From NCBI GenBank assembly GCA_951406725.2, contig OX597821.1, forward strand, positions 85,932,001 through 85,996,000: DNA of 64,000 nt, read 5' to 3'. A program made the translations under genes and the position numbers. Below, piece by piece: positions 438 to 59,152 of this stretch. This DNA comes from Octopus vulgaris. Lineage: Eukaryota. The notes below the pieces were generated by a model, which was not told the origin of the DNA, did not search any database, and worked only from the letters and a program-made list of their open reading frames with translations. Within the stretch, counting starts at the first letter, position 1. The number at the start of each line of letters is the position of its first letter.

Positions 438-740
438 CTATAAATGTAAAGGGATAATTTTCAATGGTGACACAAAGTGATGAATTGTTGTAACATGACT
501 GACAAAATAGAAGTGCAACTTTTGTAGACAAATAGTAGATGAAGTACTGAGATGACAAGCGATAACAGCACCAAACATCCAATGGTGGTAACACTGCCCC
601 TTAAAAAAGTAAAATTTATAGAACCATTCCATATTCTAAAATATTATTTTTAAACCGAGTAAGGATATAGATGCACACAGCATTTAAAAGAGAATCAAAA
701 AGGGACAAACTAGTAATTTATGGTTGATAACTTCACAAAT

Positions 741-1158
741 AGGCGCAGGAGTGGCTGTGTGGTAAGTAGCTTGCTTACCAACCACACAGTTCCGGGTTCA
801 GTCCCACTGCGTGGCACCTTGGGTAAGTGTCTTCTACTATAGCCTCGGGCCGACCAAAGCCTTGTGAGTGGATTTGGTAGACGGAAACTGAAAGAAGCCC
901 GTCGTATATATATATATATATGTATATGTATATATATGTGTGTGTGTGTTTGTGTGTGTGTCTGTGTTTGTCTCCCCAACATCGCTTGACAACCGATGCT
1001 GGCGTGTTTACGTCCCCGTTACTTAGCGGTTCGGCAAAAGAGACCGATAGGATGAGTACTAGGCTTACAAAGAATAAGTCTCGGGGTCGAGTTGCTCGAC
1101 TAAAAAGGCATTGCTCCATCATGGCCGCAGTCAAATGACTGAAACAAGTAAAAAGAGA
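741..1158 (+). mobile_element. tRNA-derived SINE, family A (CORE-like, possibly octopus OR-type), full length
   Basis: A box TGGCTGTGTGG, B box GGGTTCAGTCC, CORE-like ccttgggtaagtg, internal (TA)/(TG) tract and tail gactgaaacaagtaaaa; more than 10 copies in the window. Confidence 0.85.
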
Positions 1159-1799
1159 AAATAAAATATATATCCTATATTTCAGATTGGTATAAAAATA
1201 AAGGACGAAAGAGAATCTTTATATCATTTTTTTTTTTCTTCTTTTTCTTGCCTGATTTAGTCACTGCAGTTTAACTACATTAAAAATATGGTGATCTGCA
1301 ATATTTGTCTGAGGCAAATTTCTTTTCCACCTCAGACTTGATAGACTTGATCCTTTGCTCAGTTTAATAACATGTCTGACTCTTGAGTGCCTCTAGGGGC
1401 AACCTCTTTGTTGCTTGCATTCAGATCAAACCTCTGATCTAAAGATTATTTCATGTTTTGCTATGCTGCTTCTTACAGCTGCAACCTATGCGAGACATGG
1501 TTTCTTCATCACTGATCACAAAAAAAAGTTTGTGGGGGCAGCCCTTTCTTCGATGACTTAAAAAAAAAAAAAAGGTGGTGGTGGTCTGTGATTAAGAAAC
1601 TCACTTTGCAGCCATGTGGTTTCAGGTTCAGTCCCACAGCACTGCACCTTGGGGAAGTATCTTCTAGTATAGTTCCAGGTTGACTGATTGAGGTCTCGTG
1701 AGTAAATTTGATAGATAGAAACTGTGTGGAAGACTGGAAACGAACAACTTCCGTTGTATGACAACGATGCTCCTTTACAGCCATCATGTAATGCCTAGA

Positions 1800-2078
1800 C
1801 AAGGATACTTGTGCAGGTGCCACATGAAATGCACTAGTGATGGAGCCATGTAAAAGCACCCAAGCTGGAAGCATGTAAAAAGCACCCAGCACACTGTGTA
1901 AAGTGGTTGGCATTAGAAAGAGCATCCAGGTGTAGAAACAATGGTAAATCATGCAACTGGAGCCCCTGGACAGCTCTGCAGCTGGGCAAACAATTGGAGC
2001 CTGGGCAATTCTCCAGCTCCTGTCAAACCATCCAACCCATGACAGCATGGAAAAGGGAAGTTAAAAGATGATGATGAT
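1800..2078 (+). mobile_element. RTE-tail repeat (family B), diverged
   Basis: taaaagcacc units, ggttggcattagaaagagcatccag and a gatgatgat tail. Confidence 0.7.
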
Positions 2079-3558
2079 ATATGACAGATTTCTTTCAGTT
2101 TCCATCTTCCAAATTCACTCACAAGGCTTTTGTTGGCATGTGGCTATAGTAGAGGACACCTGCCTGATGTGCTGTGCAGTGGGATTGAACTGAAGACCTC
2201 ATGTTAACTACAAATGAATGTGTAGGGATGAAAGAACACGATTACTCAATGACAATTATTATTTTCATTTTTCAGGCCAGAAAGAGGAAAACTGCTGAAG
2301 GCCATCAGCTGGTCTGAACCTATTCTTCGATGGTAGAGTTAATGTGTCACCTGGTTTAATCAACTAGCCAGTGGAGACCCTTAGCAAAGTTTAAAAATAA
2401 TATTTTATGAGAAACAATTCTGGACATATTTTTGGTCTTATTCTGAGCTCATTAGCAAAGCATAGCCTTCACCCTAACTGTAGTGAAGTAGTGATCAAAG
2501 AACTATAAAGTCAATGTAGCAGATTGTACAGTTTTTGTTAGAGGGGAAATAAAATTATTTAGAAGTTAAATAATTCAAAAGGAAATATTCTACATCAAAG
2601 ACAACAGATAAACAATACAATCTATATTTATCATCTTGTATTGTCTGACTAGAGAACATGTCAGCCTAACTCTTCTAAGCAGACGTCTTGATACTTTACA
2701 AGTCAGGATCATACTTTTTAAGGGCTTTTATCTTAAAATTATTAATAAAATCATTCAGCGTTTATACTTAAATTATTAATATAATTATAGAATTAACTAA
2801 CCATACTGGGTTTATTTCCATAAACACAGGGCATCAGGTTGGTGAGTGATGTTGAGATTTTCATTGCCCTCCCAAAGGCATTTGTAATGGGAGACTAAAT
2901 GGCTTCCAGCCAGGAATTCAAAGCTAGATATACCTATTCATTTGACTACTTTATAGCATTTATTATAATAATAATAATAATATTAATAATAATAATAATA
3001 ATAATAATGATGATAATAATAATAATAACAACAATTTATTATAGAAATATAATACAAAAGTTATTTCCTTTGAAGTAGTTTTCTGACTTTTTGTTATCTC
3101 AATAAATATTTCCAACATAGAAACATTGCCAAATTTTCACAGGCAAAAGAATACGGTCAATGATACACCAAAATTTATTGATCCCAAACGTCAAAAGCGA
3201 AAGTGAACTCTGCTGGGATTTGAACACAGCACACACAGAGATACAACTAAATACTACCAAGTATTTGGTCTGGCAGCGTGAAGTGACTGTTAACTGACCA
3301 CACTACCGTTTCCTTACTCTAATTACACAGAGTGAGGAGTGGATTCACAGAAACAGCAGCATGGTGAAGACATGGTTTATTTAAATCTTTTGAAAATTCT
3401 AGGTTCAAATCCTGCTAGGGTGGAGTTTGTTTTACATCCCTCTAGTATCAATAAAGTAAGTACATGCCAAGAACTGGGAGGCAGGGAGATGTTAATGTAA
3501 CCAACTACGCTTTTTCCTAAAAATCTACAATACTGCACCAATGTTAGAAATCAATATT

Positions 3559-3778
3559 TAAGGTGGTAAGCTAGCAGAGTCTTTAGCATGCTAGGCAAAG
3601 GGCTTAGAGGCATTTCTTCCATTTTCATGTTCTCAGTTCAAATTCCAATGAGGTTGACTTTGCCTTTCATCCTTTTGGGGGGGTCAATGAAATAAGTACC
3701 AGTTGAACACTGGGGTTGATGTAATCAGCTTACTCCTCCCTTGAAATTGCTGGCCTTGTACCAAAATTTGAAACCAAT
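3559..3778 (+). mobile_element. tRNA-derived SINE, family C (Meta/MESC-like central domain, from memory)
   Basis: aaggtggtaagctagcaga head, gttcaaattcc B box and gcctttcatccttttggggg...aagtaccag central motif. Other copies near 23325-23515(-), 35962-36179(-), 39420-39635, 41359-41575, 55255-55465(-), 55492-55700 and 57361-57537. Confidence 0.75.
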
Positions 3779-4782: not shown

Positions 4783-6320
4783 ATCATCATCATCATCGTT
4801 TAGCGTCCGTTTTCCATGCTAGCATGGGTTGGATGGTTCTACTGGGGTCTGTGAAGCCAGAAGGCTTCATCAGGCCCAGTCAAAATCTGGCAGTGTTTCA
4901 ACGGCTGGATGCCCTTCCTAACGCCAACCACTCCGAGAGTGTAGTGGGTGCTTTTTACGTGCCACCCGCACAGGTGCCAGACAGAGCTGGCAAACGGCCA
5001 CGAATGGATGGTGCTTTTTATGTGCCACCGGCACGAGGGCCAGGCGAGGCTGGCAACGGACACGAAATGGGGCGGTGCTGGCAACGGTCGCGAAACGGAA
5101 GGTTCTCTTACATGCCACCGGCACTGGTAACACATCTGCAATTTCCATTGATCGATTTCCATTGATCGATTTCAATTCTGATCCTCACTTGCCTCAACGG
5201 GTCTTCACAAGTAGAGTTTCGACATGCCACCGGCACTGGTAACACATCTGCAATTTCCATTGATCGATTTCGATTCTGATCCTCACTTGCCTCAACAGGT
5301 CTTCACAAGTAGAGTTTTGTGTCCCAAGAAGGGAAGGTATGCATACGTAGGCCGGCTCCATCCCATGTAGAAGGCCACAGGTTATGGACTCACTTGTCCT
5401 GCCGGGTCTTCTCGCGCACAGCACACTTCCAAAGGACTCGGTCGCTAGTCATTTCCTCAGTGAGACCTAAAGTTCGAAGGTCGTGCTTCACCACCTCGTC
5501 CCAGGTTTTCCTGGGTCTGCCTCTTCCACAGGTTCCCTCAACCGCTAGGATGTGGCACTTTTTCACACAACTATCTTCATCCATTCTCGCCACATGACCA
5601 TACCAGCGCAAACGTCTCTCTTGCACACCACAACTGATGCTTCTTAGGTCCAACTTTTCTCTCAAGGTACTTACACTCTGCCGAGTATGAGTACTGACAT
5701 TACACATCCATCGGAGCATACTGGCTTCATTTCTTGCGAGCTTATGCATATCCTCAGCAGTCACGGCCCATGTTTCACTGCCATGTAGCATGGCTGTTCG
5801 TACACACGCATCATACAGTCTGCCTTTCACTCTGTGCGAGAGGCCTTTTGTCACCAGCAGAGGTAAGAGCTCTCTGAACTTTGCCCAAGCTATTCTTACT
5901 CTAGCAGTTACACTTTCAGCACACCCGCCCCCGCTGCTGACTTGGTCACCTAGGTAACGGAAACTATCAACTATTTCTAGTTTTTCTCCCTGGAAAGTGA
6001 CGGAAGTCGGTCTCAGAGCATTTTCAGTGTTTATTGTTCCTGAGCATCTGCCACATACAAAAACCATCTTCCTAGTTAGCCTTCCTTTGACATTGCTGCA
6101 CCTCTTATGTGTCCATAGCTTACACTTGGTGCATCTTATAGAGTTTCTACCTACACCTTTTCTACAGATCGAGCAGGGCCATCTACCTGAAGGCGTTTGT
6201 GATTTGTCTACCTTCCTACTGATTACGACTTTGGTTTTAGCTAGGTTGACTCTGAGGCCCTTCGATTCTAATCCTTGTTTCCACACCTGAAACTTCTCCT
6301 CCAGTTCTGATAGCGACTCA
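4783..6320 (-). mobile_element. 5'-truncated RTE-clade LINE with 3' UTR and (GAT)n tail
   Basis: ORF has late RT motifs (LRVNLAKTKV, EIVDSFRYLG) and an RTE-type C-terminus (RRLRWYGHVARM, GRGRPRKTW). The 3' UTR contains a roughly 100 bp tandem duplication (5111-5219 and 5223-5318). Confidence 0.92.
5390..6319 (-). CDS. RTE ORF C-terminal part (RT end, PHD-like finger, C-terminal domain); the first about 17 codons of the track ORF are SINE-derived
   Basis: Uninterrupted frame of about 310 codons; CxxC..CxxC..HxxC..CxxC sits between RT motifs. Confidence 0.85.
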   Translation of the reverse strand, partial: ESLSELEEKFQVWKQGLESKGLRVNLAKTKVVISRKVDKSQTPSGRWPCSICRKGVGRNSIRCTKCKLWTHKRCSNVKGRLTRKMVFVCGRCSGTINTENALRPTSVTFQGEKLEIVDSFRYLGDQVSSGGGCAESVTARVRIAWAKFRELLPLLVTKGLSHRVKGRLYDACVRTAMLHGSETWAVTAEDMHKLARNEASMLRWMCNVSTHTRQSVSTLREKLDLRSISCGVQERRLRWYGHVARMDEDSCVKKCHILAVEGTCGRGRPRKTWDEVVKHDLRTLGLTEEMTSDRVLWKCAVREKTRQDK

Positions 6321-7217
6321 TATACATATGTGTGTGTGTCTGTCTTTGTCCCCTCAACATCACTTGACAACCAATGCTGGTGTGTTTACATCCCTGTAAC
6401 TTAGCGGTTCAGCAAAAGAGACCGATAGAATAAGTACTAGGCTTACAAAAAATAAGTCCTGCGGTCGATTTGCTCGACTAAAGGCGGTGCTCCAGCATGG
6501 CCACAGTCAAATGACTGAAACAAGTAAAAGAGTAAATGTTTGTGCTGAACATTAGCTCACTTGCTCCATCAAATCAGCAAGTGCACAGTATGCCACATGT
6601 GCCACATGTCAGGTGGCAAAGTGATTGCAGAGCAATATGAGATAAAGTGTTTTGCTCTAGAACATAATGCACTGCTGGTCCAGGAATTGAGACGCAGCAC
6701 CAAATCCTGTTGCCTATGCAGTACTTACAAATACACGGGTAACAGTTTAGCATTCAGATTACTCAGTCAAATATAATGTTCATATAATCACACTGCTTTT
6801 TAAAATTAATCTTGCATTATCTCATAGTTTCAAGATTTCGATGATGTGATTGTTTATTTTCAGAATAACACTGTAGGGCAAGTGTGAGAGGTTGGATCTG
6901 GTCAGTTTGAACAAAACAGGAAGAATATTTGGGCCAGTTTAAATAATTTCGAAGGGGAACATTTTACAAGTAACCATCAATTATTGTTTCTACACTGTTG
7001 ACTAATGTTCATTAACATTTGTTAATTGGTTGTTTCCAGATTAATTAACACCAACATTACAGTTCTACCTTTGCAATACAACCACCAGTGCAAGTCAATA
7101 CTAGTTTCTTCACACACAATAGTAGAAAGAAAACAAAAGAAATGCCTGACTGACTGAGCAGTTGTCATGACTCACTGAGACAGATTAAGAAGATGATGAT
7201 AATGTAGACATACTTAC

Positions 7218-7849: not shown

Positions 7850-8205
7850 TGAAAACTGTATGTATACGTGTATGGGCCAACATCCCTAACTAAAAGGTTA
7901 CAGAAACATCAATGACAATTCAAAACCAACAGGACCTGGAAGAGAAACATCTTCCCTCAGGGAAACGTAATGTGGTGCAGTAAAATCCAAAAGGAAATTA
8001 AGACAACCAACATCCTGCATTACACATCAGAACCTGACCTGGAACTCACAAGAAAGATGGAAGAGAAGACACACTAAAAGAATAGCCAAAGGTGGGTTAC
8101 TGAGGAAGAGCTGAAAAAGCAGGGGTCCAACTGGAGAGAAGGAGAAAAGACAGCACAGAGCCAAGGACAGTAGCTCCATAGGAAGTAAAGGGGTCAAGCA
8201 AGTAC
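7850..8205 (+). mobile_element. Degenerate RTE-like LINE 3' end (different family)
   Basis: Reads LRQPTSCITHQNLTWNSQERWKR...EEELKKQGSNWREGEKTAQ, resembling the RTE C-terminal ITRQALTWNPQGKRKRGRP consensus. Confidence 0.6.
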
Positions 8206-8513
8206 TCCTCTTATAGATGGTTTGAATCCAAGACCTATCACATCCTCCCTTCTTTTAGCTATTTCTCTTGTACAAGACAGTTTTTAGAAGGTGTAGCTGA
8301 TTTTACTAACCCAAGTAGCATCATTGATACTTATTTTTTATATTCTTAAATCTATATTAATGATAAAAGTTATTACAGAGATGTACTCGCATAGCAAGTG
8401 ATTTGATCTGAGATCGTGTGCTGAAACGAAGACAATTGCAGCGTGGAAGGTGTTTGTAAGCCATTTAAGAAACACACAAAAGCCGTTCGATTCACTTCAA
8501 CATTTAAGTTTAA

Positions 8514-8560
8514 TTTGTCAAAATATTTTCGTTGCTTTAAGACCGCGACCTGTTCACTGA
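8514..8560 (-). ncRNA. Inverted copy of the G3-C8 hammerhead (helix I 5' strand truncated)
   Basis: Reverse complement reads TCA-GTGAACA-G-GTCGC(ggtcttaaa)GCAAC-GAAA-ATAT-TT-TGACAAA. Confidence 0.55.
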
Positions 8561-8575
8561 GATGCAGCACGGATT

Positions 8576-8625
8576 TTTGTCAGTGAACAGGTCACGGATT
8601 TTAGCGACGAAAATATTTTGACAAA
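8576..8625 (+). ncRNA. Minimal type I hammerhead motif, G3-C8 core variant
   Basis: TTTGTCA-GTGAACA-G-GTCAC(ggatttta)GCGAC-GAAA-ATAT-TT-TGACAAA: 7 bp helix I, helix II, palindromic helix III AATATT. Confidence 0.65.
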
Positions 8626-8727
8626 TTAAACTTAAATGTTGAAGTGAATCGAACAGCTTTTGTGTGTTTCTTAAATGGCTTACAAACACCTTCCACGCTG
8701 CAATGATAAAAGTGTCCAGCTGATAAT

Positions 8728-8914
8728 GTTATTGTAAAGGTCAAGTTAACCATATTTAAGAGCATCTATGATCAAAGGTATTCTAGCAATGACCATCCCA
8801 AATACCCTTTAGATTGGGTATCTAGGACTACACTATCCAGCATATCCTTCCTTTTTTTTTCAAGACAGGAGTGAATTGGCTGCTATTTCTAGCAAGTCAA
8901 GCAGCCATGTAGAG
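8728..8914 (+). repeat. Unclassified dispersed repeat, family D (representative copy)
   Basis: tgatcaaaggtattctagcaatgaccatccc...ggctgctatttctagca. Diverged copies near 13640, 15255, 16855, 40400, 40620, 43695 and 61810. Confidence 0.6.
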
Positions 8915-9355
8915 CAAGGGTTCTTAACAAGGTCCAAATGACCCTTGGGGGTCTATAAAAGATTTATCTGCAATAAATTGGTTATACTTCTTTTTCATAC
9001 AGTTCCCCAAAATATTTAATTATAAAAATACAATGAGATTTTTTAAAACCCTTTTGTTACCATATTTCTGTTGGGATGCTCAGTGTTTCTTTCAATTAAT
9101 TTTAAATATAACAAAGAAATTAGTAAAATAACTTAGTTATCATCAAGCTAGTGTTAGGAACATAAATTGTGACGAAGGTTTGGTGGAAGATTTTAATTCA
9201 AAACTTTTGAAAACAAGACATTTGTACCACAGAGCCAGAGGCGGTTTCAGCCAGGTTGGTATCAAAAGGGTTAAACATCAAATGGCTATGGGGGTCCACC
9301 TGACTAAAATAGGAAGCAAATGGGTCCAGAGGCAAAAAATGGTTGAGCGCTACTG
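8915..9355. mobile_element. hAT-type MITE
   Basis: Imperfect TIRs CAAGGGTTCTTAAC / GTTGAGCGCTACTG with a perfect 8 bp TSD ATGTAGAG (8907-8914 and 9356-9363). Confidence 0.8.
9049..9270 (-). mobile_element. piggyBac-type (TTAA) MITE nested in the hAT MITE
   Basis: CCCTTTTGTTACC / GGTATCAAAAGGG|TTAA; same family as 9528, 23737, 28964 and 30693. Confidence 0.85.
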
Positions 9356-9527
9356 ATGTAGAGGCTTAGCAGTCTACTCAATACATTCAGGCAGTTTTCT
9401 TTTCAACTCATCAACTTATGTTCATGTTAGTGCTTAACTCCTTTCAGTTCTATCAAGCAATTGTTCCAGTCATAACAGCCCTACATTTTTTTATATCAGG
9501 GACTACATTGTTCAATGTATCCTTTAA

Positions 9528-10010
9528 CCCTTTTGATACCAACCTGGCTGAAACCGACTCTAGCTCTGAGTACAAATGTCTTGTTTTCAAAAGTTTTGAA
9601 TTAAAATCTTCCACCAAACCTTAGCCACAATTTATGTTCCTAACACTAGCTGAATGATAAATAAGTTATTTTACTAAATTCATCATCATCATCGTTTAAC
9701 GTCTGTTCTCCATGCTAGCATGGGTTGGACGGTTCAACCAGGGATCTGGGAAGCCAGGAGGCTGCACCAGGCTCTGGTCTCATCTGGCAATGTTTCTACA
9801 GCTGGATGCCCTTCCTAACGCCAACCACTCCATGAGTGTAGTGGGTGCTTTTTACATGCCACCTGCACAGGTGCCAGGCGAGGCTGGCATCGGCCACGGT
9901 CGGATTGATGCATTTTACGTGCCACCTGCACGGAAGTCAGTTCTTTGTTATATTTAAAATTAATTGAAAGAAACACAGAGCATCTCAAAATATATATGGT
10001 AACAAAAGGG
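9528..10010 (+). mobile_element. piggyBac-type MITE interrupted by an RTE-tail repeat (9681-9940, minus)
   Basis: TTAA|CCCTTTTGATACC ... GGTAACAAAAGGG|TTAA; MITE sequence resumes after the insert. Confidence 0.85.
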
Positions 10011-11351
10011 TTAATGTGATGATTTAGCTGGAATTTCTAGCAGGCCTAGCAACTACATTGAAGGTTCCTCAACGGTGATGGTAGACATGTTTTACACATC
10101 AATAACTTATAGAATTTTAATCAAGTGAAGAAAGTATATGTGTGTAGTAGTGAGAGGAGCATGGAAATGACGAGAGATGCAGAGGAGTTGATGAGCAGAG
10201 ACAAGGTGTGTGTGTCTGTGTACGTCTTTAGACACTCGCATTCTAACAAGCCGATACACGAAGCTATTGAAAATCCTACCCAGAAATATAAGACTGGTCA
10301 TATGTTATCATCACTTAACATGTTTTTCATGCTAACATGAGATGCAAAGTTTGACAGGATCAGGTGAGCCACAGGGCAGCATTGAGCTCCAGTGTCAGCT
10401 TTGGGAGGCTTTCTTCATTAACTGATGATGATGATATGTGTGTGTGCGTGTGTGTGTTTGCAAGGAAAAAGATGACAGTGAAGTGACCTCAAAATTGCAC
10501 TTAGTCACCTTTGTCAGACTTTCTGACGAAAGTGACTAAGCCAAAAGAGTCACTGCCAACCATTTCCTTGTAATAATATTAAAAGACTTAAAAGGTATTG
10601 GTCAATCCTTCAATTAATATTTGACTATTATACACACATACCTACACTGTGTGTATACATACATACAAACATACATATATTATGTATGTCATCCATAAAA
10701 ATATATGTATATATAAAATATAATCCATCACATATAAATGAATAAAACTGATCATTTATACCAAAGCATACAATTTGAACCTTTAATCCAATGATACTAA
10801 CCTTCATGGACACATACACACATCATATAATTTCTGCTGACAGCTACTCTAATTACCTAAATCACAATTTTGTCATTATTGATTTGGCATCACTAAATGG
10901 TGTGAACTAATATGATAGAGTAGTAGGGAGGAAGAGGACTGGTAGGAGAGAGGTATTCAGAAGGAGAGAGAGAGAGAGAGGTGAGAGAAAAGGTGGAGGA
11001 GACATGTGTGATGGTGTTGGTGGTGGTGGAGAGGCAGAATGGAAAAGATGATGAGAGGCTAGGAAAAGTCGTTGAGCAAAGAGGTGAGAGAGAGAGAGAG
11101 ACAGTGAACAGAAAAGTAAAAGTAGTGTATGTAGGAGTGTGCATGTTTTATGCATGTGAGTATGCAAGAAATGTGTGTAAGAAGAATTAAAGGAGTCATG
11201 GGCCAACTGCCACCTGCAGGATTTTCTAAAGGAATGCCTAATAAAAAAATTTACCTTGGACTTTTTTTTTATTAGCACTGCTCTGATGATGAGCCGTGTT
11301 GCATATGGCCCTCTTCCTGAAAAAGGCTGGCCATGTCTGGTTTAAAATATG

Positions 11352-13824: not shown

Positions 13825-14119
13825 CATCATCATCATCATCATCATCGTTTAACGTCCATCATCATCATTTAGCGTCCGCTTTCCATGCTAGCATGGGTTG
13901 GACGGGTCAACTGGGGTCTGTGAAGCTGGAAGGCTTCGTCAGGCCCAGTCAGATCTGGCAGTGTTTCTACGGCTGGATGCCCTTCCTAACGCCAACCACT
14001 CCGTGAGTGTAGTGGGTGCTTTTTACGTGCCACCTGCACAGGTGCCAGATGGAGCTGGCAAACGGCCAAGGACGGATGGTGCTTTTTACGTGCCACCGGC
14101 ACGGGGGCCAGGCAAGGCT
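13825..14119 (-). mobile_element. RTE-tail repeat (family B)
   Basis: (CAT)n then cgtttagcgtccgctttccatgctagcatggg; duplicated tail. Confidence 0.85.
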
Positions 14120-14367
14120 ATATTAAAAAGTACACTACTGGTGCTACTACTATTGAAATAATGTTTACAGATAAAATAGAATTATTCAACTGATCGATTT
14201 TAATTTTGTTAGGCTCATGGCCTCAAATATACTAGGAAGAAAGTATAATTCTGTGAGATGGTCATGTCTTTCTTCAAGGTATTTGCAGTTTAAGTGGATG
14301 AGTTTTTAAAATCAAGAATTTAAACTAACTCAGAGACATAACTTGCAGTGGAGAATTTCCCTTTTAA

Positions 14368-14754
14368 TACTCTTTACTTGTTTCAGTCATTTGACTGCGG
14401 CCATGCTGGAGCACTGCCTTTAGTCGAGCAAATCGACCCCGGGACTTATTCTTTGGTAACCCCAGTACTTATTCTATCGGTCTCTTTTGCCGAACCGCTA
14501 AGTTACGGGGACATAAACACACCAGCATCGGTCGTCAAGCAATGCTAGGGCGACACATACAAACACACACACACATATATATATATACACGACAGGCTTC
14601 TTTCAGTTTCCGTCTACCAAATCCACTCACAAGGCATTGGTCGGCCCGGGGCTATAGTAGAAGACACTTGCCCAAGATGCCACGCAGTGGGACTGAACCC
14701 AGAACCATGTGGTTGGTTAGCAAGCTACTTACCACACAGCCACTCCTGCGCCTA
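14368..14754 (-). mobile_element. Family A SINE
   Basis: Full-length match to the family. Confidence 0.85.
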
Positions 14755-15369
14755 TGTTCATTGTTTCTTTAATAACCTTAATTAGTGTCAATATATTGTA
14801 GAAAGGCTTTGGTTAGGGTAAGTCTGACACAGTGTGACAGATGACTTAGATTCAACTCCCAGCCATTCATGATTGTCACACAACACCATTTCCTTTCCCC
14901 CGTCTTATTCATTTTAAAATGTTCATTAAAAGCAATGGTAATTAACTCATTTTACAGGTATATAATCTTACATGTACAGGGAGAGGAGACTGGGGATTTG
15001 AAACATTGATTTCTGTTGTAGGTTAGTAGAGAGTAGGGGAAAGAAACATGGGTAGGTAAGGAAATTTCCTGTGGAAGTTCAAAGCAGTTCATGGGAAGGT
15101 TCAGTGATTATGGAGCTGGTGAATGTAACAGGTGAAGAAGGAGGAGACAAGACAAGTACTCTGCAAAAAAGTGGAGACAGTTTGCATACAATCAATCAAT
15201 CAATCAATCAATCAACATGTTCAGAGACGAAAAGAGTATTGCAATGAAAATAGTTGTATTTAAACACAGGTCAGCCCTGATCCAATGCACCTATGATAAG
15301 AGTTCCATGACCATTCAATCTTATTTTCAGATATGATGCATTGAATACTATATATAGAAAAAAAAACAC

Positions 15370-15602
15370 GATTTTCCGTGACCGTTGCCAGTACCGCCTG
15401 ATCGGCCCTCGTGCCAGTGGCACGTAAAAGCACCCACTACACTCTCAGAGTGGTTGGCGTTAGGAAGGGCATCCAACTGTAGAAACTCTGCCAAATCAAG
15501 ATTGGAGCCTGGTGCAGCCATCTGGTTCACCAGTCCTCAGTCAAATTGTCCAACCCAAGCTAGCATGGAAAGCGGATATTAAACGATGATGATGATGATG
15601 AT
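15370..15602 (+). mobile_element. RTE-tail repeat (family B)
   Basis: gtggcacgtaaaagcaccc... and (GAT)n tail; a further fragment at 15810-15962. Confidence 0.8.
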
Positions 15603-15748
15603 TATATATATATATATATATTATATTAAATTAGAGACAAAACCACTATTATGCAAATCAAACAAAGAAAGACTTAAGCCAATACATAAAATAATTTATA
15701 TAAATTAAATTTAATTAAAATAACCACAATAAATTAAATAAATTAATA

Positions 15749-15798
<50 letters not shown>

Positions 15799-16472
15799 GC
15801 CAACTCTACATGGTGGTTGATGTTAGGAAGGGCATCCAGTTGCAAAAACCCTGCCAAAACAGTCACAGAAGTCTGGTGCAGGCTTCTGCCTGGCTGGCTC
15901 CTGTCAAACCAACCAACCCATACCAGCATGGAAGGAGGACATTAAATAATGATGATGATGATATATCAATGTGCAGTGGTTTTAAGATGGTAGGGTGTGG
16001 TTTGCAGGGACATTTATTTGATATTTCTAGTAGGTTGGTGGTTATTAGAATGGTTAATGATAGTTTTGTCAATACAAGCTGTGACAGCACAAAATTTCAG
16101 AAGAGAGAGAGAGAGAGCAAATAGTGAGTGAGAGAGAGAGAGAGAGAGAGAGAATGTGTATGTGTGTATGTGTGTGATAAAATAAATAATTGGTGAGACT
16201 AACACAAGAAACTGTTGGTGTGCAAGCTCTAGTGTGAAACACTAACAATACAAATTACTGCACTATTATTGCCAGAGCTGCTAATATGGGTAAATTCTTT
16301 AAGCTGCATTGATTAAGCAAGACACAATTCCAAGACAATAGAATTACAAGTTCAATTATTAAGCACTTCCTCAATGAAGCCGTTGCTATTGTTTTAAAGA
16401 ATAAGATATTTTATTAATCTATACAAGTAAGATTATAGGAGTTTTACTTGTGTATATGTGTGATAATGTTGC

Positions 16473-33965: not shown

Positions 33966-34114
33966 CTGTTTCTAATTTTTTCTGAAAGTAGTCCAAATTT
34001 TTCCGTAGTGCAAAATGCATCCAAAGCAGAGTTCCACAGGCAACAAGACAAGCTACCAAGACTAAAAAACCGGAGACAGTCAAGCATGTGGTACATACAT
34101 TCGAACGACTCCGT
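33966..34114 (-). CDS. EFCAB14: EFCAB14-like exon encoding the transmembrane segment (149 bp, phase 2 to 1)
   Basis: Acceptor ttttatttctag and donor G|GTAAAG. Translates RSRSNVCTTCLTVSGFLVLVACLVACGTLLWMHFALRKNLDYFQKKLET, closely resembling the recalled human EFCAB14 segment LCGFVILAACVVACVGLVWMQVALKEDLDALKEKF. In frame with the next exon. Confidence 0.9.
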
Positions 34115-36179: not shown

Positions 36180-36819
36180 AAATAAATCACACATGTCATC
36201 TTCCTGTTCCTATTATTTAGCAGAAGAGTTTCATTTATTTTCAGGGTAGAGCAACAAAACACCACCACCACCCCCATCTGGCACCTGGAGTATCTTTAGC
36301 AAAGTCTACTCTGGCTCAAGCATTTGAGCCAGGTCTCCAGCTTGAGGCTTCCTTTGTTCCACTAATCTTGCAAAGACTGTGAAAAGTTATGGGCACTGTT
36401 TTTCCTCTTGACTAAAAGATTCAAAAGAAACATGTCCTCACAGATAATGGTGACCTGTGGAGTGAGGGGAATGAAACAACAATGTAGAATATACTTGAAC
36501 TATATTTTAACCTTCACACTATGCTTTAAATATTGTGTTGATTAAAACGGATTAAAGGAGAAAAAGATTCTTTTCATAAATGCAATACTGAAAACTGAAC
36601 TTCAAACTGGATCTGAACTGTCACCCTGTGATTTACATTAAACAATAATTGCTTTTATCCAGAAAATGAAATGAAATGTGAACTATTCTATTAAACATTC
36701 TATTGAACTATTCTATTGGACTATGTCATATGAATGATAGAAAACAGTATAGAAAAATACCTGATTATATTTGAGCCAGCATCCAGATTTTGTTTAATAA
36801 CAAACATACCTTTTTATTA

Positions 36820-37156
36820 GAGTTGTTGTATACTGTCAACTTAATGTGACAGTCCCATGAAGGGAATCACACTACTGCTATTTAGCCCTAGGAGGCAGCA
36901 ATGCTTCCTGTCGGCCTTGACACATTTCCTGTGTCCTTATGTTTACAAGGGGGAGATAAACACCTCCACCCAGCTAAGCCTGCATCCAGAGACTAGTTTC
37001 TGAGTATTTGCTCGTCATCAGTCTGGAGTAGCATGGCCTGCTAGTTGGAGATGCCTATCTAACTCTTGTAAACATATAAGAATTCTAGGGCTAAATAGCA
37101 GTAGTGTGATACCCTTCATGGGACTGTCACATTAAGTTGACAGTATACAACTACTC
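36820..37156. mobile_element. 337 bp element with 72 bp terminal inverted repeats and a central hammerhead
   Basis: Arms 36820-36891 and 37085-37156 differ at 2 positions; the interior is also self-complementary. Confidence 0.85.
36985..37027 (-). ncRNA. Type I hammerhead ribozyme motif with canonical core
   Basis: Reverse complement reads TCCAGA-CTGATGA-C-GAG(caaata)CTC-A-GAAA-CTAG-TC-TCTGGA; palindromic helix III ACTAGT, GUC site, extendable helix I. Confidence 0.8.
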
Positions 37157-37525
37157 CATATACCACTCTGAGATATTTAGAAATGTATTATTTATATCTT
37201 TTTATTATTTTTCATCTTTTTACTTGTTTTAGTGGACAGCAGCCATGCTGGAGCATCACCTCAAAGGGTTTAGACCAACAAGTCGCCCCCAATGCATTAT
37301 TATTTTTAAGTGTGATACTTTTTTTATTTGTCGTTTTTGCTAAATACCAAACTGCTATGTTGTAGGGATGTAAACAAACCAACACCAGTTGTAAGTGGTG
37401 GTGGGGGACAAGCACGAAGACTAAGGTAGCAACTTTGAAGGGAGGGTTAGTTGATGCCACTGACTCAAGTATATTGCCTGATACTTTGAGTAGGGGGAAG
37501 GGTAAATGTATAATAATATAAACAA

Positions 37526-44629: not shown

Positions 44630-45875
44630 GTCACTAGTCATTGCCTCTGTGAGGCCCAAAGTTCAAAGATCATGCTTCATCATCTTGTCCCATGTCTTCC
44701 TGTGTCTACCTCTACCACGGGCTCCCTCCACAGTTAGAGATCGGCACTTCTTTACAGAACTGTCCTTGTCCATATGCATCACATGGCCATACCAGCGCAG
44801 TTGCCTCTCATGAACACCACATCTGATGCCTCTTATTCCCATCTTTTCTCTCAAGATGCTTACACTGTCAAGCATACATACTGACATTACACATTCAGTG
44901 GAGCCTATTGGCTTCAATTCTTTCAAGCCTATGCATGTCCTCAGCTGTCACAGCCCAGGTTTCGTTGCCGTCTGATGTAGCTCTTCATACACATGCACCA
45001 TACAAGCTGCCTTTCACTCTGAGAGAGAGAGGCCCTTTGTTGCCAGCAGAGGAAGGAGCTCTCTGAATATTGCCCAGCCTCATCTTATTCTCACAGCTAT
45101 GCACTCAGCACATCCACATCCACTACTCAGTTGGTCACCTAGATAAATGAAACTATCTACTACTTCTAGTTTACTCCAATGGCAGTTGGAGTCTATTTTC
45201 TGTACATTTTTGGTGTTTATTGTTCTTGAGCATCTTCCACACACAAAAGCTATTTTGCCCGTTAACCTTCCTGTGATATTGCTGCACCTTTTATGTGTCC
45301 AAAGCTTACAGTGGGAATATCCTATGGAGTTTCTACCTATGCCTTTTCAACAGATCGAGCAGGGTCATCTACTTGAAGGGTTTTGTGATTTGTTTGCCTT
45401 CTTACTAAGACTTTAGTTTTTGCAACATTTGATTCTAGACCTTGCTTCCAGACCTGGAAATTCTTCTCTAGTTCTGGTAGTGATTCAGCTATAAGAACAA
45501 GGTCATTAGCATAGAGGAGCTCCCAGGGGTAGCCTGTCTTAAATTCCTCTGATATTGCTAGGAGTACTATGATGAACAAGAGGGGCTGAGGATCAATCCT
45601 TGGTGAACCCCTACTTGTACCCTGAATTCTTTGCTATACTCATTGCCAACTCTCACCTTACTGGTAGCATCTTTGTACATGGCTTGTACAGCTCTCACCA
45701 ACCACTCATCTATCCCTAGTTTCTACCTTGACCACCAGATAAGGGATTGGGGTCTCTGTCAAAGGCTTTCTCCAAGTCAACAAAAACCAAATGCAGAGGT
45801 TTATCTTTGGCTATATATTTCTCCTGCAGCTGCCTTACCAGAAATATAGCATCAGTGGTGCTTCTCTCTGGCAGA
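44630..45875 (-). mobile_element. Degenerate RTE LINE (RT core to C-terminus)
   Basis: STTDAIFLVRQLQEK, FVDLEKAFDR, GVHQG, LLYANDLVL (YADD motif) and LRWYGHVMHM; frameshifted; homologous to 5390-6319. Confidence 0.9.
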
Positions 45876-46698
45876 GGACCCATCAAACCAAATGAAATCA
45901 TAGTCATGGCTGATGCTGGTGTCACATTACTGGCACCTGTACTAGTCGCACATAAAAAGCACCTTTCCAGTGTTTGCCCTCACTGTGGCAATGACTGAGA
46001 CCTTTGGCATTATGTTGTGCTTGAGAAGACCCATCAAGCTGAGCAAAACTGCCGTCATGGCAGATACCGGTGTCAAGCAAATGGCACCCATTACACTCTC
46101 AGAGTGGTTGACATTAGGAAGAGCATCCAGCTGTAGAAAAACTATGCCAAATCAGACTGGGATGAGGTGCAGCCTTCCAGCTTGCCAATCCTGATCAAAC
46201 CATCCAACACATGCCAGCAGGGACATCGGACTTAAATGATAATATATATATGTATGTATATATGTATGTATATATGTATGTACGTAAATATGTATGTATA
46301 TATGTATGTATATAAATATGTATGTATATAAATATGTATGTATATATATAAATATATATAAATATGTATGTATATATGTATGTACGTAAAAAGCACTATC
46401 CGACTCGTGGCCGATGCCAGCGCCGCCTCGACTGGCTTCCGTACCGGTGGCACATAAAATACACCAATCCGACCGTGGCCGTTGCCAGCCTCGCCTGGCA
46501 CCTGTGCAGGTGGCACGTAAAAAGCACCCACTACACTCACGGAGTGGTTGGCGTTAGGAAGGGCATCCAGCTGTAGAAACATTGCCAGATAAGACTGGAG
46601 CCTGGTGCAGCCTCCTGGCTTCCCAGATCCCTGGTCGAACCGTCCAACCCATGCTAGCATGGAGAACGGACGTTAAACGATGATGATGATGATGATGA
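45876..46698 (+). mobile_element. Two RTE-tail repeats separated by a (TATG)/(TA) microsatellite
   Basis: Family B motifs at 45876-46240 and 46383-46698. Confidence 0.75.
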
Positions 46699-58316: not shown

Positions 58317-58640
58317 TCAATAGGCCAGCAGGAATTTCCCAAAATGCAAGCATGGTCCAAAGACCTCCGTTCCAGGGTTAAGTAAGTTCCCTGGGTCGAG
58401 GGAGTCCTTTAGAATCCTCGCCTGTTCCACTAAGCATAGTTTACAGTGCTTGGTCTTGTTTATGTAGGGGCCTGGATTTTCTAGGATTCTCCATGATATT
58501 GTGTATGGAATGCCATCATCCTTCAGTTGCCATACATGGCTGGCTAATGAAGGGGGAATATGTTCCTGGAGCAGCTGGTGTATCTCTGTGGTCAAGTCTT
58601 GGCAGTGCAGTGTCTTGGTGTTGCTGGTACTGGTGCTGTT
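58317..58640 (-). mobile_element. Penelope-like element, GIY-YIG endonuclease C-terminus
   Basis: SLASHVWQLKDDGIPYTISWRIL...TKHCKLCLVEQARIL...LLNPGTEVFGPCLH matches the PLE pattern LSxYIWxLK..I.WxI...CxLCLxEK..I...LLN.RxE...C.H. Confidence 0.85.
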
Positions 58641-59152
58641 GGTGGGCCCACTGCAAAACCAAGGGAGCTGTCTATGAAGCTAAGGTACTGGCTGACCCTA
58701 ATAGCAGCAGCAACATCAGCAGCTCCCCAAACGGCTACTACAGTAGCAGGGATAATAGTAGGAATAGTAGCAGCAGCAAAGACATGAACAGAATCAGTGG
58801 CAGCACCATCGTCAGCGATAACAACAGCAAAGGTAGCAATGGCAGTATCCCTAACGGAAACAGCAGCAGAACCATTGCCAATCATATCTATAACAGCAGT
58901 GACAGCACTTCCATCAATGATGATGATCATAACAACAACAGCACCATTACCAACACCGGCAGTGATGACACCAATAGCGCCAGTACTAACAACATTAGCA
59001 GCAGCAGCAATGCTAACATCAACAGACAGAGCACCACCAACACCCAACCACATACATCAGCTGCTCCAGGAAAATATTCTAACAATGCCTCTCCAACCAC
59101 ATATCCTCCTTCAGGATACTAGAAAGGAGATACATTACGTCATTAGCCAGCC
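58641..59152 (+). mobile_element. Penelope-like GIY-YIG N-terminal part in inverted orientation, with a Ser/Asn-rich insert
   Basis: HCKTKGAVYEAKV, then low-complexity sequence, then (frameshifted) TYISCSRKIF*QCLSNHISSFRILERRYITSLAS. Confidence 0.75.

What the first reader, a model, noticed from the sequence alone, without database searches (positions are those of the whole stretch)
36820..37156. MITE-shaped rod with a canonical hammerhead at its tip
Seen: 72 bp terminal inverted repeats (2 mismatches). The interior also pairs (tatgtttacaag/cttgtaaacata, agata/tatct, ctcca/tggag, tccaga/tctgga), so nearly the whole 337 nt folds as one rod ending in CUGAUGA..GAAA..GUC on the minus strand. A repeat annotator would call it a MITE, but DNA MITEs have no use for a ribozyme and I see no TSD. 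Inference: a retrozyme- or viroid-like RNA-mobilised element, or a Penelope pseudo-LTR with an inverted end. It is sense to the EFCAB14 pre-mRNA if the first exon lies upstream, so it could cut the intron or act as an ADAR/Dicer substrate.
Basis: partly seen in the sequence, partly recalled or inferred. Interest (0 to 1): 0.8.

Follow-up and report, generated by a model that had tools for sequence, protein, structure and literature searches.

The report
Penelope-type stump insertion with hammerhead, octopus
The rod is real, but it is best read as a short, cut-down insertion of the hammerhead-bearing end of a Penelope-like jumping gene in an octopus intron, with an outer mirror-image arm that was probably made when it landed; it looks like a new family of a known kind, not a ribozyme-carrying DNA transposon or a viroid.

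Summary
The 72-bp arms (2 mismatches), the inner pairing and a type I hammerhead motif on the minus strand are all present and beyond chance. The element runs 36820-37193 (374 nt), with a 37-nt tail on one side only, inside a 14-bp target-site duplication (36806-36819 / 37194-37207). Reads from related runs show a high-copy family with a steep 5'-truncation gradient and inverted arms of many lengths, so the 'TIR' is a per-insertion product, not a MITE end. Inverted truncated arm, one-sided tail, long TSD and a hammerhead with palindromic helix III are the published marks of Penelope-like element (PLE) insertions. The host is Octopus; the site is most likely an EFCAB14 intron, hammerhead sense. 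Helix III covaries as a palindrome (ACUAGU/ACAUGU), which fits dimer cleavage. A C.A mismatch sits at the base of helix II, and one RNA run showed no pile-up of ends at the cut site. Open points: the parent (coding PLE or non-coding retrozyme) was not found, cleavage is untested, and the family's ~47-bp helix I extension is unusually long. Verdict: new member of a known kind; interest 0.3.

The parts
36806..36819 (.). Left copy of 14-bp target-site duplication
   Evidence: best flanking direct repeat, 13 of 14 identical to 37194-37207; these are the only two places in the window, both strands, at <=1 mismatch. The one mismatch (36809) reads T, a perfect match, in the single flank contig of each of runs X1, X2, X3 (table 3).
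36820..36891 (-). 3' end of the main, hammerhead-sense copy (left arm); ends without the tail
   Evidence: Depth jumps from 6-50 in the flank to over 17,000 in the bin 36814-36841 (table 2).
36892..36937 (-). Body between arm and inner rod; two small hairpins; variable between subfamilies
   Evidence: many majority variants and loose ends at 36893-36905.
36938..36984 (-). 3' strand of the inner rod (extension of helix I)
   Evidence: 41 pairs beyond helix I, 36 Watson-Crick and 5 G.U; family variants mostly keep pairing.
36985..37027 (-). Type I hammerhead motif: helix I 37027-37022 / 36990-36985 (6 bp); core 37021-37015 and 37000-36997; helix II 37013-37011 / 37004-37002 with C37014.A37001 at its base; helix III palindrome 36997-36992; predicted cut 36991|36990
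   Evidence: palindrome-keeping double change at 36994/36995.
37028..37084 (-). 5' strand of the inner rod (37031-37076) and 5' end of the main copy
   Evidence: Family depth falls to about 640-890 flank-equivalents at 37038-37065 and 74-114 at 37066-37093.
37085..37156 (+). Inverted, 5'-truncated second copy of the element's 3' end (right arm)
   Evidence: other copies start this arm at many different points (tables 5, 5c).
37157..37193 (+). 37-nt tail, on the inverted arm only
   Evidence: Family reads cover 37150-37205 at about 930-1160 flank-equivalents; loose ends at 36818 and behind 37155 hold tail-like sequence; 49 RNA reads leave the window sequence behind 37193 (ratios).
37194..37207 (.). 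Right copy of 14-bp target-site duplication
33966..34114 (-). Nearest downstream exon of the host gene (EFCAB14 by its source name), 2.7 kb from the element

Best explanation
The stretch is one insertion of the hammerhead-bearing terminal repeat (pseudo-LTR) of a high-copy Penelope-like family in Octopus. Inferred mechanism: a PLE endonuclease/reverse transcriptase made staggered cuts 14 bp apart in AT-rich DNA and primed two cDNAs on the element RNA at two start sites 37 nt apart. One cDNA ran about 265 nt, through the hammerhead, and stopped at 37084. The other began at the further site (hence the tail), ran about 109 nt and was joined head to head. Repair left a 14-bp TSD. The outer 72-bp stem is thus a by-product of insertion. 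The hammerhead and its ~47-bp inner stem are inherited family features. The ribozyme is of the dimer-dependent type and is probably silent in this lone intronic copy. Shown: anatomy, TSD, tail, high copy number, variable arms, truncation gradient, palindrome covariation. Inferred: the enzyme, the two priming events, dimer cleavage, silence at this locus. Whether the master copy codes for its own protein is unresolved.
For: (1) 14-bp TSD exactly at both read-defined ends; background 18 of 1558 AT-rich 14-mers for the 84-nt zone searched and 1 of 1558 for a 7-nt zone; perfect in three runs. (2) One-sided 37-nt tail; published tails are 30-40 bp on one end (PMC8557442; 31 bp in PMC3846280) and equal the distance between two RT start sites (PMC11167929). 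(3) Of 15 joints shown (of 49), 9 join a truncated body to the right arm or tail at 9 different points, 37083 to 37159. (4) Summed depth over flank depth falls from about 14,000-16,000 (both arms) to 8,000-10,600 (36898-36953), 700-3,600 (hammerhead) and 74-114 (37066-37093) in three runs. (5) Helix III palindrome kept by a double change at 36994/36995: 3.0/3.0%, 24.7/27.7%, 3.0/3.0% in X1-X3 and 64/65% in RNA run X24; short palindromic helix III marks PLE and retrozyme hammerheads (PMC4209133). (6) Unrelated contigs with the same core pattern show the same plan: 3 of 5 tested have a 10-12-bp TSD and a 28-34-nt one-sided tail, and one family has palindromes of 227, 376 and 626 nt. (7) PLEs fill 6.83% of the O. 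vulgaris genome (PMC13282606 supplement).
Against: No RT or endonuclease frame is linked to the element: no genome is held and the parent was not found. The 14-bp TSD is longer than the 8-10 bp in the passages seen and is AT-rich. No empty site appears among the 15 joints shown. The joints are mostly single contigs at 80% likeness with sides of 20-45 letters, some with inserted letters, and summed contig depth is not a copy number. Linkage of the two palindrome changes is inferred from matching counts, not from single reads. Helix sizes (6 and 4 positions) fit the 'canonical' class typical of retrozymes better than the minimal PLE class. The long inner rod is not described in the passages I read.
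Confidence: 0.8

Rival explanations
1. The master is a non-coding, retrozyme-like RNA element in its own right: a roughly 300-400-nt unit whose hammerhead sits at the tip of a long selected rod, is cut from tandem copies as a dimer, circularises, and borrows PLE enzymes only to integrate. The insertion anatomy would be the same as in the best explanation; the source RNA differs.
For: Canonical helix I and II sizes. Variable paired sites in the inner rod mostly keep pairing: 36957/37057 A-U to G-C, 36960 U.G to C-G, 37038 G.U to A-U, 37048 C-G to U.G; 36981 breaks. 5 G.U against 1 A.C on the hammerhead strand (not significant). Depth collapses at the rod's 5' edge. Three metagenome loci share helix I and helix III exactly, and two of them hold direct repeats 727 and 1021 nt apart. 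Animal retrozymes are proposed PLE derivatives (bioRxiv 10.64898/2026.07.22.740005).
Against: No tandem copy in the window and no back-going joint among the 15 of 49 shown. In RNA run X24, 81% of laid reads run on into unlike sequence, both directions are equal and no place shows piled ends. The family continues past the tail in 49 reads, as a pLTR running into its frame would.
Confidence: 0.12
2. A DNA MITE with 72-bp TIRs that captured or happens to contain a hammerhead.
For: Near-perfect 72-bp inverted ends, small size, high copy number.
Against: The right arm is not terminal: 37 nt of family sequence lie outside it. Arm length and body length vary between copies, depth shows a one-way gradient, and the TSD is 14 bp.
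Confidence: 0.03
3. The copy has been taken over by the host as an intronic self-cleaving or double-stranded control element of EFCAB14 (not exclusive of a PLE origin).
For: Sense to the pre-mRNA, 2.7 kb from a 3' splice site. The left junction is shared by runs of three organism labels (table 8). Core letters are intact.
Against: Those flanks differ by only 1-3 letters in about 400, so sharing needs no selection. The monomer fold pairs the core, no partner hammerhead lies in the window, and the copy differs from the family majority at several sites, including loop II (37006). The RNA run laid had no reads on this locus's left flank.
Confidence: 0.05

Closest known systems
Insertions of endonuclease-bearing Penelope-like elements with inverted pLTR, tail and TSD (Arkhipova et al. 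2013, PMC3846280; Craig et al. 2021, PMC8557442; Frangieh et al. 2024, PMC11167929)
   Same: Inverted 5'-truncated copy head to head with the main copy; 30-40-bp tail on one arm only; TSD; strong 5' truncation; AT-rich target; hammerhead within the terminal repeat; palindromic sequence at the pLTR 5' end.
   Different: No coding frame in this copy and no parent identified; TSD 14 bp against 8-10 bp in the passages seen; the 5' palindrome spans about 140 nt and is centred on the hammerhead, against 18 and 38 bp in Adineta.
Metazoan type I hammerheads of PLEs and satellites (Cervera and De la Pena 2014, PMC4209133)
   Same: CUGAUGA and GAAA core, GUC site, 6-bp helix I, 2-bp helix III with palindromic loop, so expected to cut as a dimer.
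   Different: C.A at the base of helix II (or one extra base on each side of G10.1-C11.1); helix I extended to about 47 bp; no Rfam match; activity untested.
Animal non-LTR retrozymes (Cervera and De la Pena 2020, PMC7229834; Li, Clavereau and Pollet, bioRxiv 10.64898/2026.07.22.740005)
   Same: Short non-coding repeat, about 300 nt, thousands of copies, canonical-size type I hammerhead; the axolotl Amex2 motif also has a mismatch (U.U) at the base of helix II and cleaves weakly as monomer, better as dimer.
   Different: Defined by tandem arrays and circular RNA; here a single copy with an inverted arm; arrays and circles not shown.
MITEs (definition from my own knowledge, no call)
   Same: Small size, inverted ends, high copy number.
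   Different: Ends are not fixed or terminal, TSD is long, copies are 5'-truncated.

Membership tests
EN+ Penelope-like element insertion | Inverted 5'-truncated terminal-repeat copy of variable length | tested here: met
   72-nt arm; 9 different arm or tail start points in 15 of 49 joints shown.
EN+ Penelope-like element insertion | 30-40-bp tail on one end only | tested here: met
   37157-37193, covered by family reads, absent at the left end.
EN+ Penelope-like element insertion | Target-site duplication at an AT-rich site | tested here: met
   14 bp, 13 of 14 in the window, 14 of 14 in three runs; empty site not seen.
EN+ Penelope-like element insertion | Heavy 5' truncation among copies | tested here: met
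   Depth gradient of over 100-fold from the 3' end to 37093 in three runs; contig depth is a rough measure.
EN+ Penelope-like element insertion | Hammerhead motif within the pLTR | tested here: met
EN+ Penelope-like element insertion | Parent element with RT and GIY-YIG frame sharing this pLTR | not testable with these tools
   No genome held; an exact 21-nt arm pattern found nothing in three collections. A separate PLE endonuclease remnant lies 21 kb away with no link shown.
Type I hammerhead ribozyme | Core CUGANGA, GAAA, NUH with helix I closing both ends | tested here: met
   No core position is among the 40 best-supported variant rows of 147.
Type I hammerhead ribozyme | G10.1-C11.1 pair next to the core | tested here: not met
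   C37014.A37001 next to the core; a G-C pair one step out. Neither site is among the 40 rows shown, so this is probably the family state. A U.U precedent cleaves.
Type I hammerhead ribozyme | Helix III stable, or short and palindromic for dimer cleavage | tested here: met
   6-nt palindrome, self-duplex -6.2 kcal/mol, kept by a double change.
Type I hammerhead ribozyme | Match to an Rfam hammerhead model | tested here: not met
Type I hammerhead ribozyme | Self-cleavage after the GUC | not testable with these tools
   No piled ends in one ordinary RNA-seq run of a related organism (table 6); such libraries may not show them.
Non-LTR retrozyme | Tandem repeats, each with a hammerhead | tested here: inconclusive
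   Not met at this locus; family-wide arrangement not visible (15 of 49 joints shown).
Non-LTR retrozyme | Abundant monomeric circular RNA | tested here: inconclusive
   763 reads laid of 12.9 million records, 81% running on into unlike sequence, no back-joint shown; one run, 6% read.
MITE | Fixed TIRs at both termini and uniform length | tested here: not met
   One-sided tail outside the arm; variable arms and bodies.
MITE | Short superfamily-specific TSD (2, 3, 8 or 9-11 bp; recalled) | tested here: not met
   14 bp.

The most novel reading that the evidence does not exclude
The family's master is a non-coding, PLE-mobilised RNA element of octopuses whose hammerhead caps a covarying ~47-bp rod. 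The rod holds the monomer inactive and exposes only the palindromic helix III for dimer cleavage, giving a viroid-like circular RNA with thousands of genomic footprints; its fold-back insertions would also be a large source of intronic double-stranded RNA in an animal group known for heavy RNA editing (recalled).
Probability: 0.12. Interest if true: 0.6.

Novelty: new member of a known kind. Interest (0 to 1): 0.3.

Why it matters
As read here it is mainly an annotation lesson and a new family. MITE-shaped rods in octopus can be Penelope stumps, recognisable by a one-sided tail and a long TSD. I found no paper describing an octopus hammerhead family (5 papers hold both terms, 4 listed, none about that by title or abstract start); most subscription papers, Repbase and Dfam were not searchable. 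The family offers natural covariation in helix III that supports dimer cleavage, and thousands of copies with which to test the two-start-site model of PLE insertion. It would matter more if the master proved non-coding and circular.

Tried and rejected
Own-genome search: no genome held. Rfam at gathering and at E<=10: no hammerhead hit. Self-BLAST of the window: no second copy. Exact 21-nt arm pattern: 0 matches in viral, metagenome and prokaryote genome collections. A loop-II-specific hammerhead pattern: 0 in viral contigs. A looser pattern gave 29 metagenome loci; 9 of 29 have no helix III palindrome and are treated as chance; none resembles the element beyond 15-42 nt of the core; several are duplicates of one locus (L001/L021/L023, L007/L014, L024/L028, L009/L010/L018); the inverted-arm family scores only 2-3 of 6 helix I pairs in my fixed register, so it is a core match, not a verified ribozyme. 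TSD search in those loci: L007 gave only 7 bp, L019 none. Parent hunt through the window's endonuclease remnant: no longer homologue at E<=0.001; 1414 hits in the representative library, 150 listed, none with an N-terminus like the possible frame start in the tail. A>G and T>C counts in RNA run X24 (16 and 18 places) were not read as editing, since copies and alleles look the same. Three of the five opposite-strand joints shown (36939/37061, 36941/37088, 36956/37040) may come from the inner palindrome; none of the five was counted. Earlier findings by sequence, genome and relatives: nothing. Lunse et al. (PMC5785218) is not held; seen only as a citation in PMC6765202.

Full report
1. Observation. 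The arms are at 36820-36891 and 37085-37156, 72 nt, with mismatches at 36824/37152 and 36865/37111. The minus strand folds at -207.5 kcal/mol, z -22. Without the arms the interior 36935-37080 still folds as a rod, -65.3 on the minus strand (z -7.2) and -56.3 on the plus. At its tip lies a type I hammerhead motif: helix I of 6 bp, core at 37021-37015 and 37000-36997, helix II of 3 bp with C.A at its base, helix III a 6-nt palindrome, cut site 36991|36990. My helix-checked pattern hits once in the window, in 1 of 100 window shuffles and in 1 of 5000 element shuffles. Rfam does not recognise it. It is the only copy in the window.

2. Host. The exon at 34114-33966 matches two Octopus proteins at 100%, one named EF-hand calcium-binding domain-containing protein 14 by its source. 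Further exons lie at about 7364-7218 and 437-342 on the minus strand; the first ~55 residues have no match in the window. The element is therefore most likely intronic with the hammerhead sense to the pre-mRNA. This is inferred from the missing exon.

3. The family. No genome is held, so I used reads. 20 of 24 listed runs hold part of the element, the best 58% of 31 words, under five organism labels and one metagenome label. I laid 4 of them (three contig sets, one raw RNA run) on 36450-37260 at 80% likeness. Left-flank depth is 6-49 and jumps over a thousand-fold at the left arm. Relative to flank, summed depth is about 14,000-16,000 on the two arms together, 8,000-10,600 at 36898-36953, 700-3,600 over the hammerhead, 640-890 at 37038-37065 and 74-114 at 37066-37093. 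Summed contig depth is not a copy number, but the one-way slope repeats in three runs and is what 5' truncation gives. Of 15 joints shown (of 49), 9 join a cut-down body to the right arm or tail, each at a different point from 37083 to 37159. These are mostly single contigs with short sides, some with inserted letters. A MITE would give one arm length.

4. True boundaries. Family reads also cover 37150-37205 at about 1,000 times flank depth, loose ends at both arms carry tail-like sequence, and 49 RNA reads leave the window sequence behind 37193. A search for flanking direct repeats then gave 36806-36819 / 37194-37207, 13 of 14 identical, the only two such places in the window. I scanned 14 left boundaries and 83 right ones, so the hit had many chances; it fell exactly on the arm edge and on the read-defined tail end. 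Background is 72 of 20,200 14-mers for the zone searched (18 of 1558 AT-rich ones) and 5 of 20,200 for a 7-nt zone (1 of 1558). The mismatch at 36809 reads as the matching letter in the flank contig of all three DNA runs. The element is 374 nt with a 37-nt tail on the inverted arm only. Those contigs run from the flank into the left arm, so the insertion is shared by the three labels; no empty site appeared among the joints shown.

5. Comparison. In rotifer Penelope elements an inverted, shorter pLTR completes the insert, a 31-bp tail is optional on one inverted pLTR, TSDs are 8-10 bp, and pLTR 5' ends carry 18- and 38-bp palindromes (PMC3846280, passages). Craig et al. give the same plan with a 30-40-bp tail often at one end (PMC8557442, passages). 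For the anole element, cleavage prefers AT-rich DNA, the tail is the stretch between two RT start sites, the hammerhead needs protein to cut, is not needed for insertion in vitro, and no RNA-seq ends were seen at its cut site (PMC11167929, parts 1-2 of 4). Metazoan type I hammerheads have a 1-2-bp helix III with a palindromic loop and act as dimers (PMC4209133, parts 1-2 of 4; PMC6765202, passages). PLEs make up 6.83% of the O. vulgaris genome in 190 families, 31 recently active (PMC13282606, passages and supplement rows). As an outside control, a core pattern gave 29 metagenome loci, 20 with a palindromic helix III. Of 5 palindromic loci tested, 3 have a 10-12-bp TSD and a 28-34-nt one-sided tail, and one family shows palindromes of 227, 376 and 626 nt. 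The plan recurs in unrelated sequences.

6. The ribozyme. The palindrome changes at both middle positions in matching shares: 3.0/3.0%, 24.7/27.7%, 3.0/3.0% in DNA and 64/65% in the RNA run. This keeps self-complementarity and is the best sign that the motif is under selection as a dimer-type hammerhead; linkage is inferred from counts. No core position is among the 40 variant rows shown of 147. Against activity here: C.A at 10.1-11.1; the monomer pairs C3-U4-G5 at 0.83-0.87 probability, with the open-core fold 1.7 kcal/mol higher; no partner in the window; no piled ends in the RNA run. The axolotl Amex2 motif has U.U at the same place and cleaves 22% as monomer, better as dimer (PMC7229834, passages and section 15), so the mismatch need not be fatal. 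In the RNA run 763 of 12.9 million records were laid, 538 under 90% alike, both directions equal, 81% running on into other sequence and none on this locus's left flank: other copies embedded in other transcripts, not a discrete RNA.

7. What stays unusual. Helix I extends by 41 pairs (36 Watson-Crick, 5 G.U; one A.C mismatch). Of the listed variants at paired sites of this rod, 36957/37057 together, 36960, 37038 and 37048 keep a pair and 36981 breaks one. This may be a selected RNA helix or an old inversion fixed in the master; the data do not separate them. The parent was not found, so a non-coding retrozyme-like master stays open; animal retrozymes are proposed to derive from pLTRs (bioRxiv 10.64898/2026.07.22.740005, parts 1-3 of 5; its supplements were not seen and cover no mollusc by the text read). 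The octopus repeat library behind PMC13282606 was not available and may already list this family without the ribozyme.

8. Earlier notes of this scan (unchecked AI notes on other genomes) describe similar hammerhead-centred palindromic PLE stumps. They are not evidence; they pointed me to PMC3846280, which I read in passages, and suggest the pattern is common.

9. Verdict. It works like a PLE insertion and meets every insertion feature I could test. Membership of a coding PLE family is untested. It fails the MITE tests. New member of a known kind; interest 0.3; best explanation 0.8; novel case 0.12.

Noticed in passing
window 58317-58679 (-), with a low-complexity stretch at about 58590-59120: Decayed C-terminal end of a PLE-type endonuclease. 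Its longer relatives carry RT motifs and one has a weak GIY-YIG hit (E 0.0098, below cut-off). The best short relative (P0005) also has a long Ser/Asn/Thr-rich stretch in front, recalling the N-rich inserts of rotifer PLEs.
   Followed up: partly
window 37157-37193 and reads beyond: An ATG lies 11 nt before the tail's end, and 49 RNA reads continue past 37193 in family sequence; this may be the start of the parent's reading frame.
   Followed up: partly
window 37014 and 37001: The C.A mismatch at the base of helix II seems to be the family state, while loop II position 37006 differs from the family majority (about 70-97% of depth).
   Followed up: partly
L005:629-664, L011:314-348 and 1041-1075, L020:765-799: A family, 68-87% alike among itself, with the same helix I and helix III as the octopus motif and direct repeats 727 and 1021 nt apart; no frame of 120 aa. 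Candidate long-unit retrozymes.
   Followed up: partly
L019:517-671: Another hammerhead motif at the tip of a long imperfect rod (z -13); no TSD found.
   Followed up: partly
L001:1603-2032, L013:882-1162, L028:807-1297, L007:1960-2585: Hammerhead-core palindromes, three with one-sided tails and 10-12-bp TSDs, in AT-rich non-coding contigs; in L001 and L013 the tail lies on opposite arms.
   Followed up: yes
window 5390-6385 (-) and about 44660-45980 (-): Remnants of a LINE reading frame (RTE-like by recall; weak PHD hit below cut-off).
   Followed up: no
window 34114 to 7364: The next EFCAB14 intron is about 26.6 kb, and the first coding exon is outside the window, so the intron holding the element exceeds 29 kb.
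   Followed up: partly
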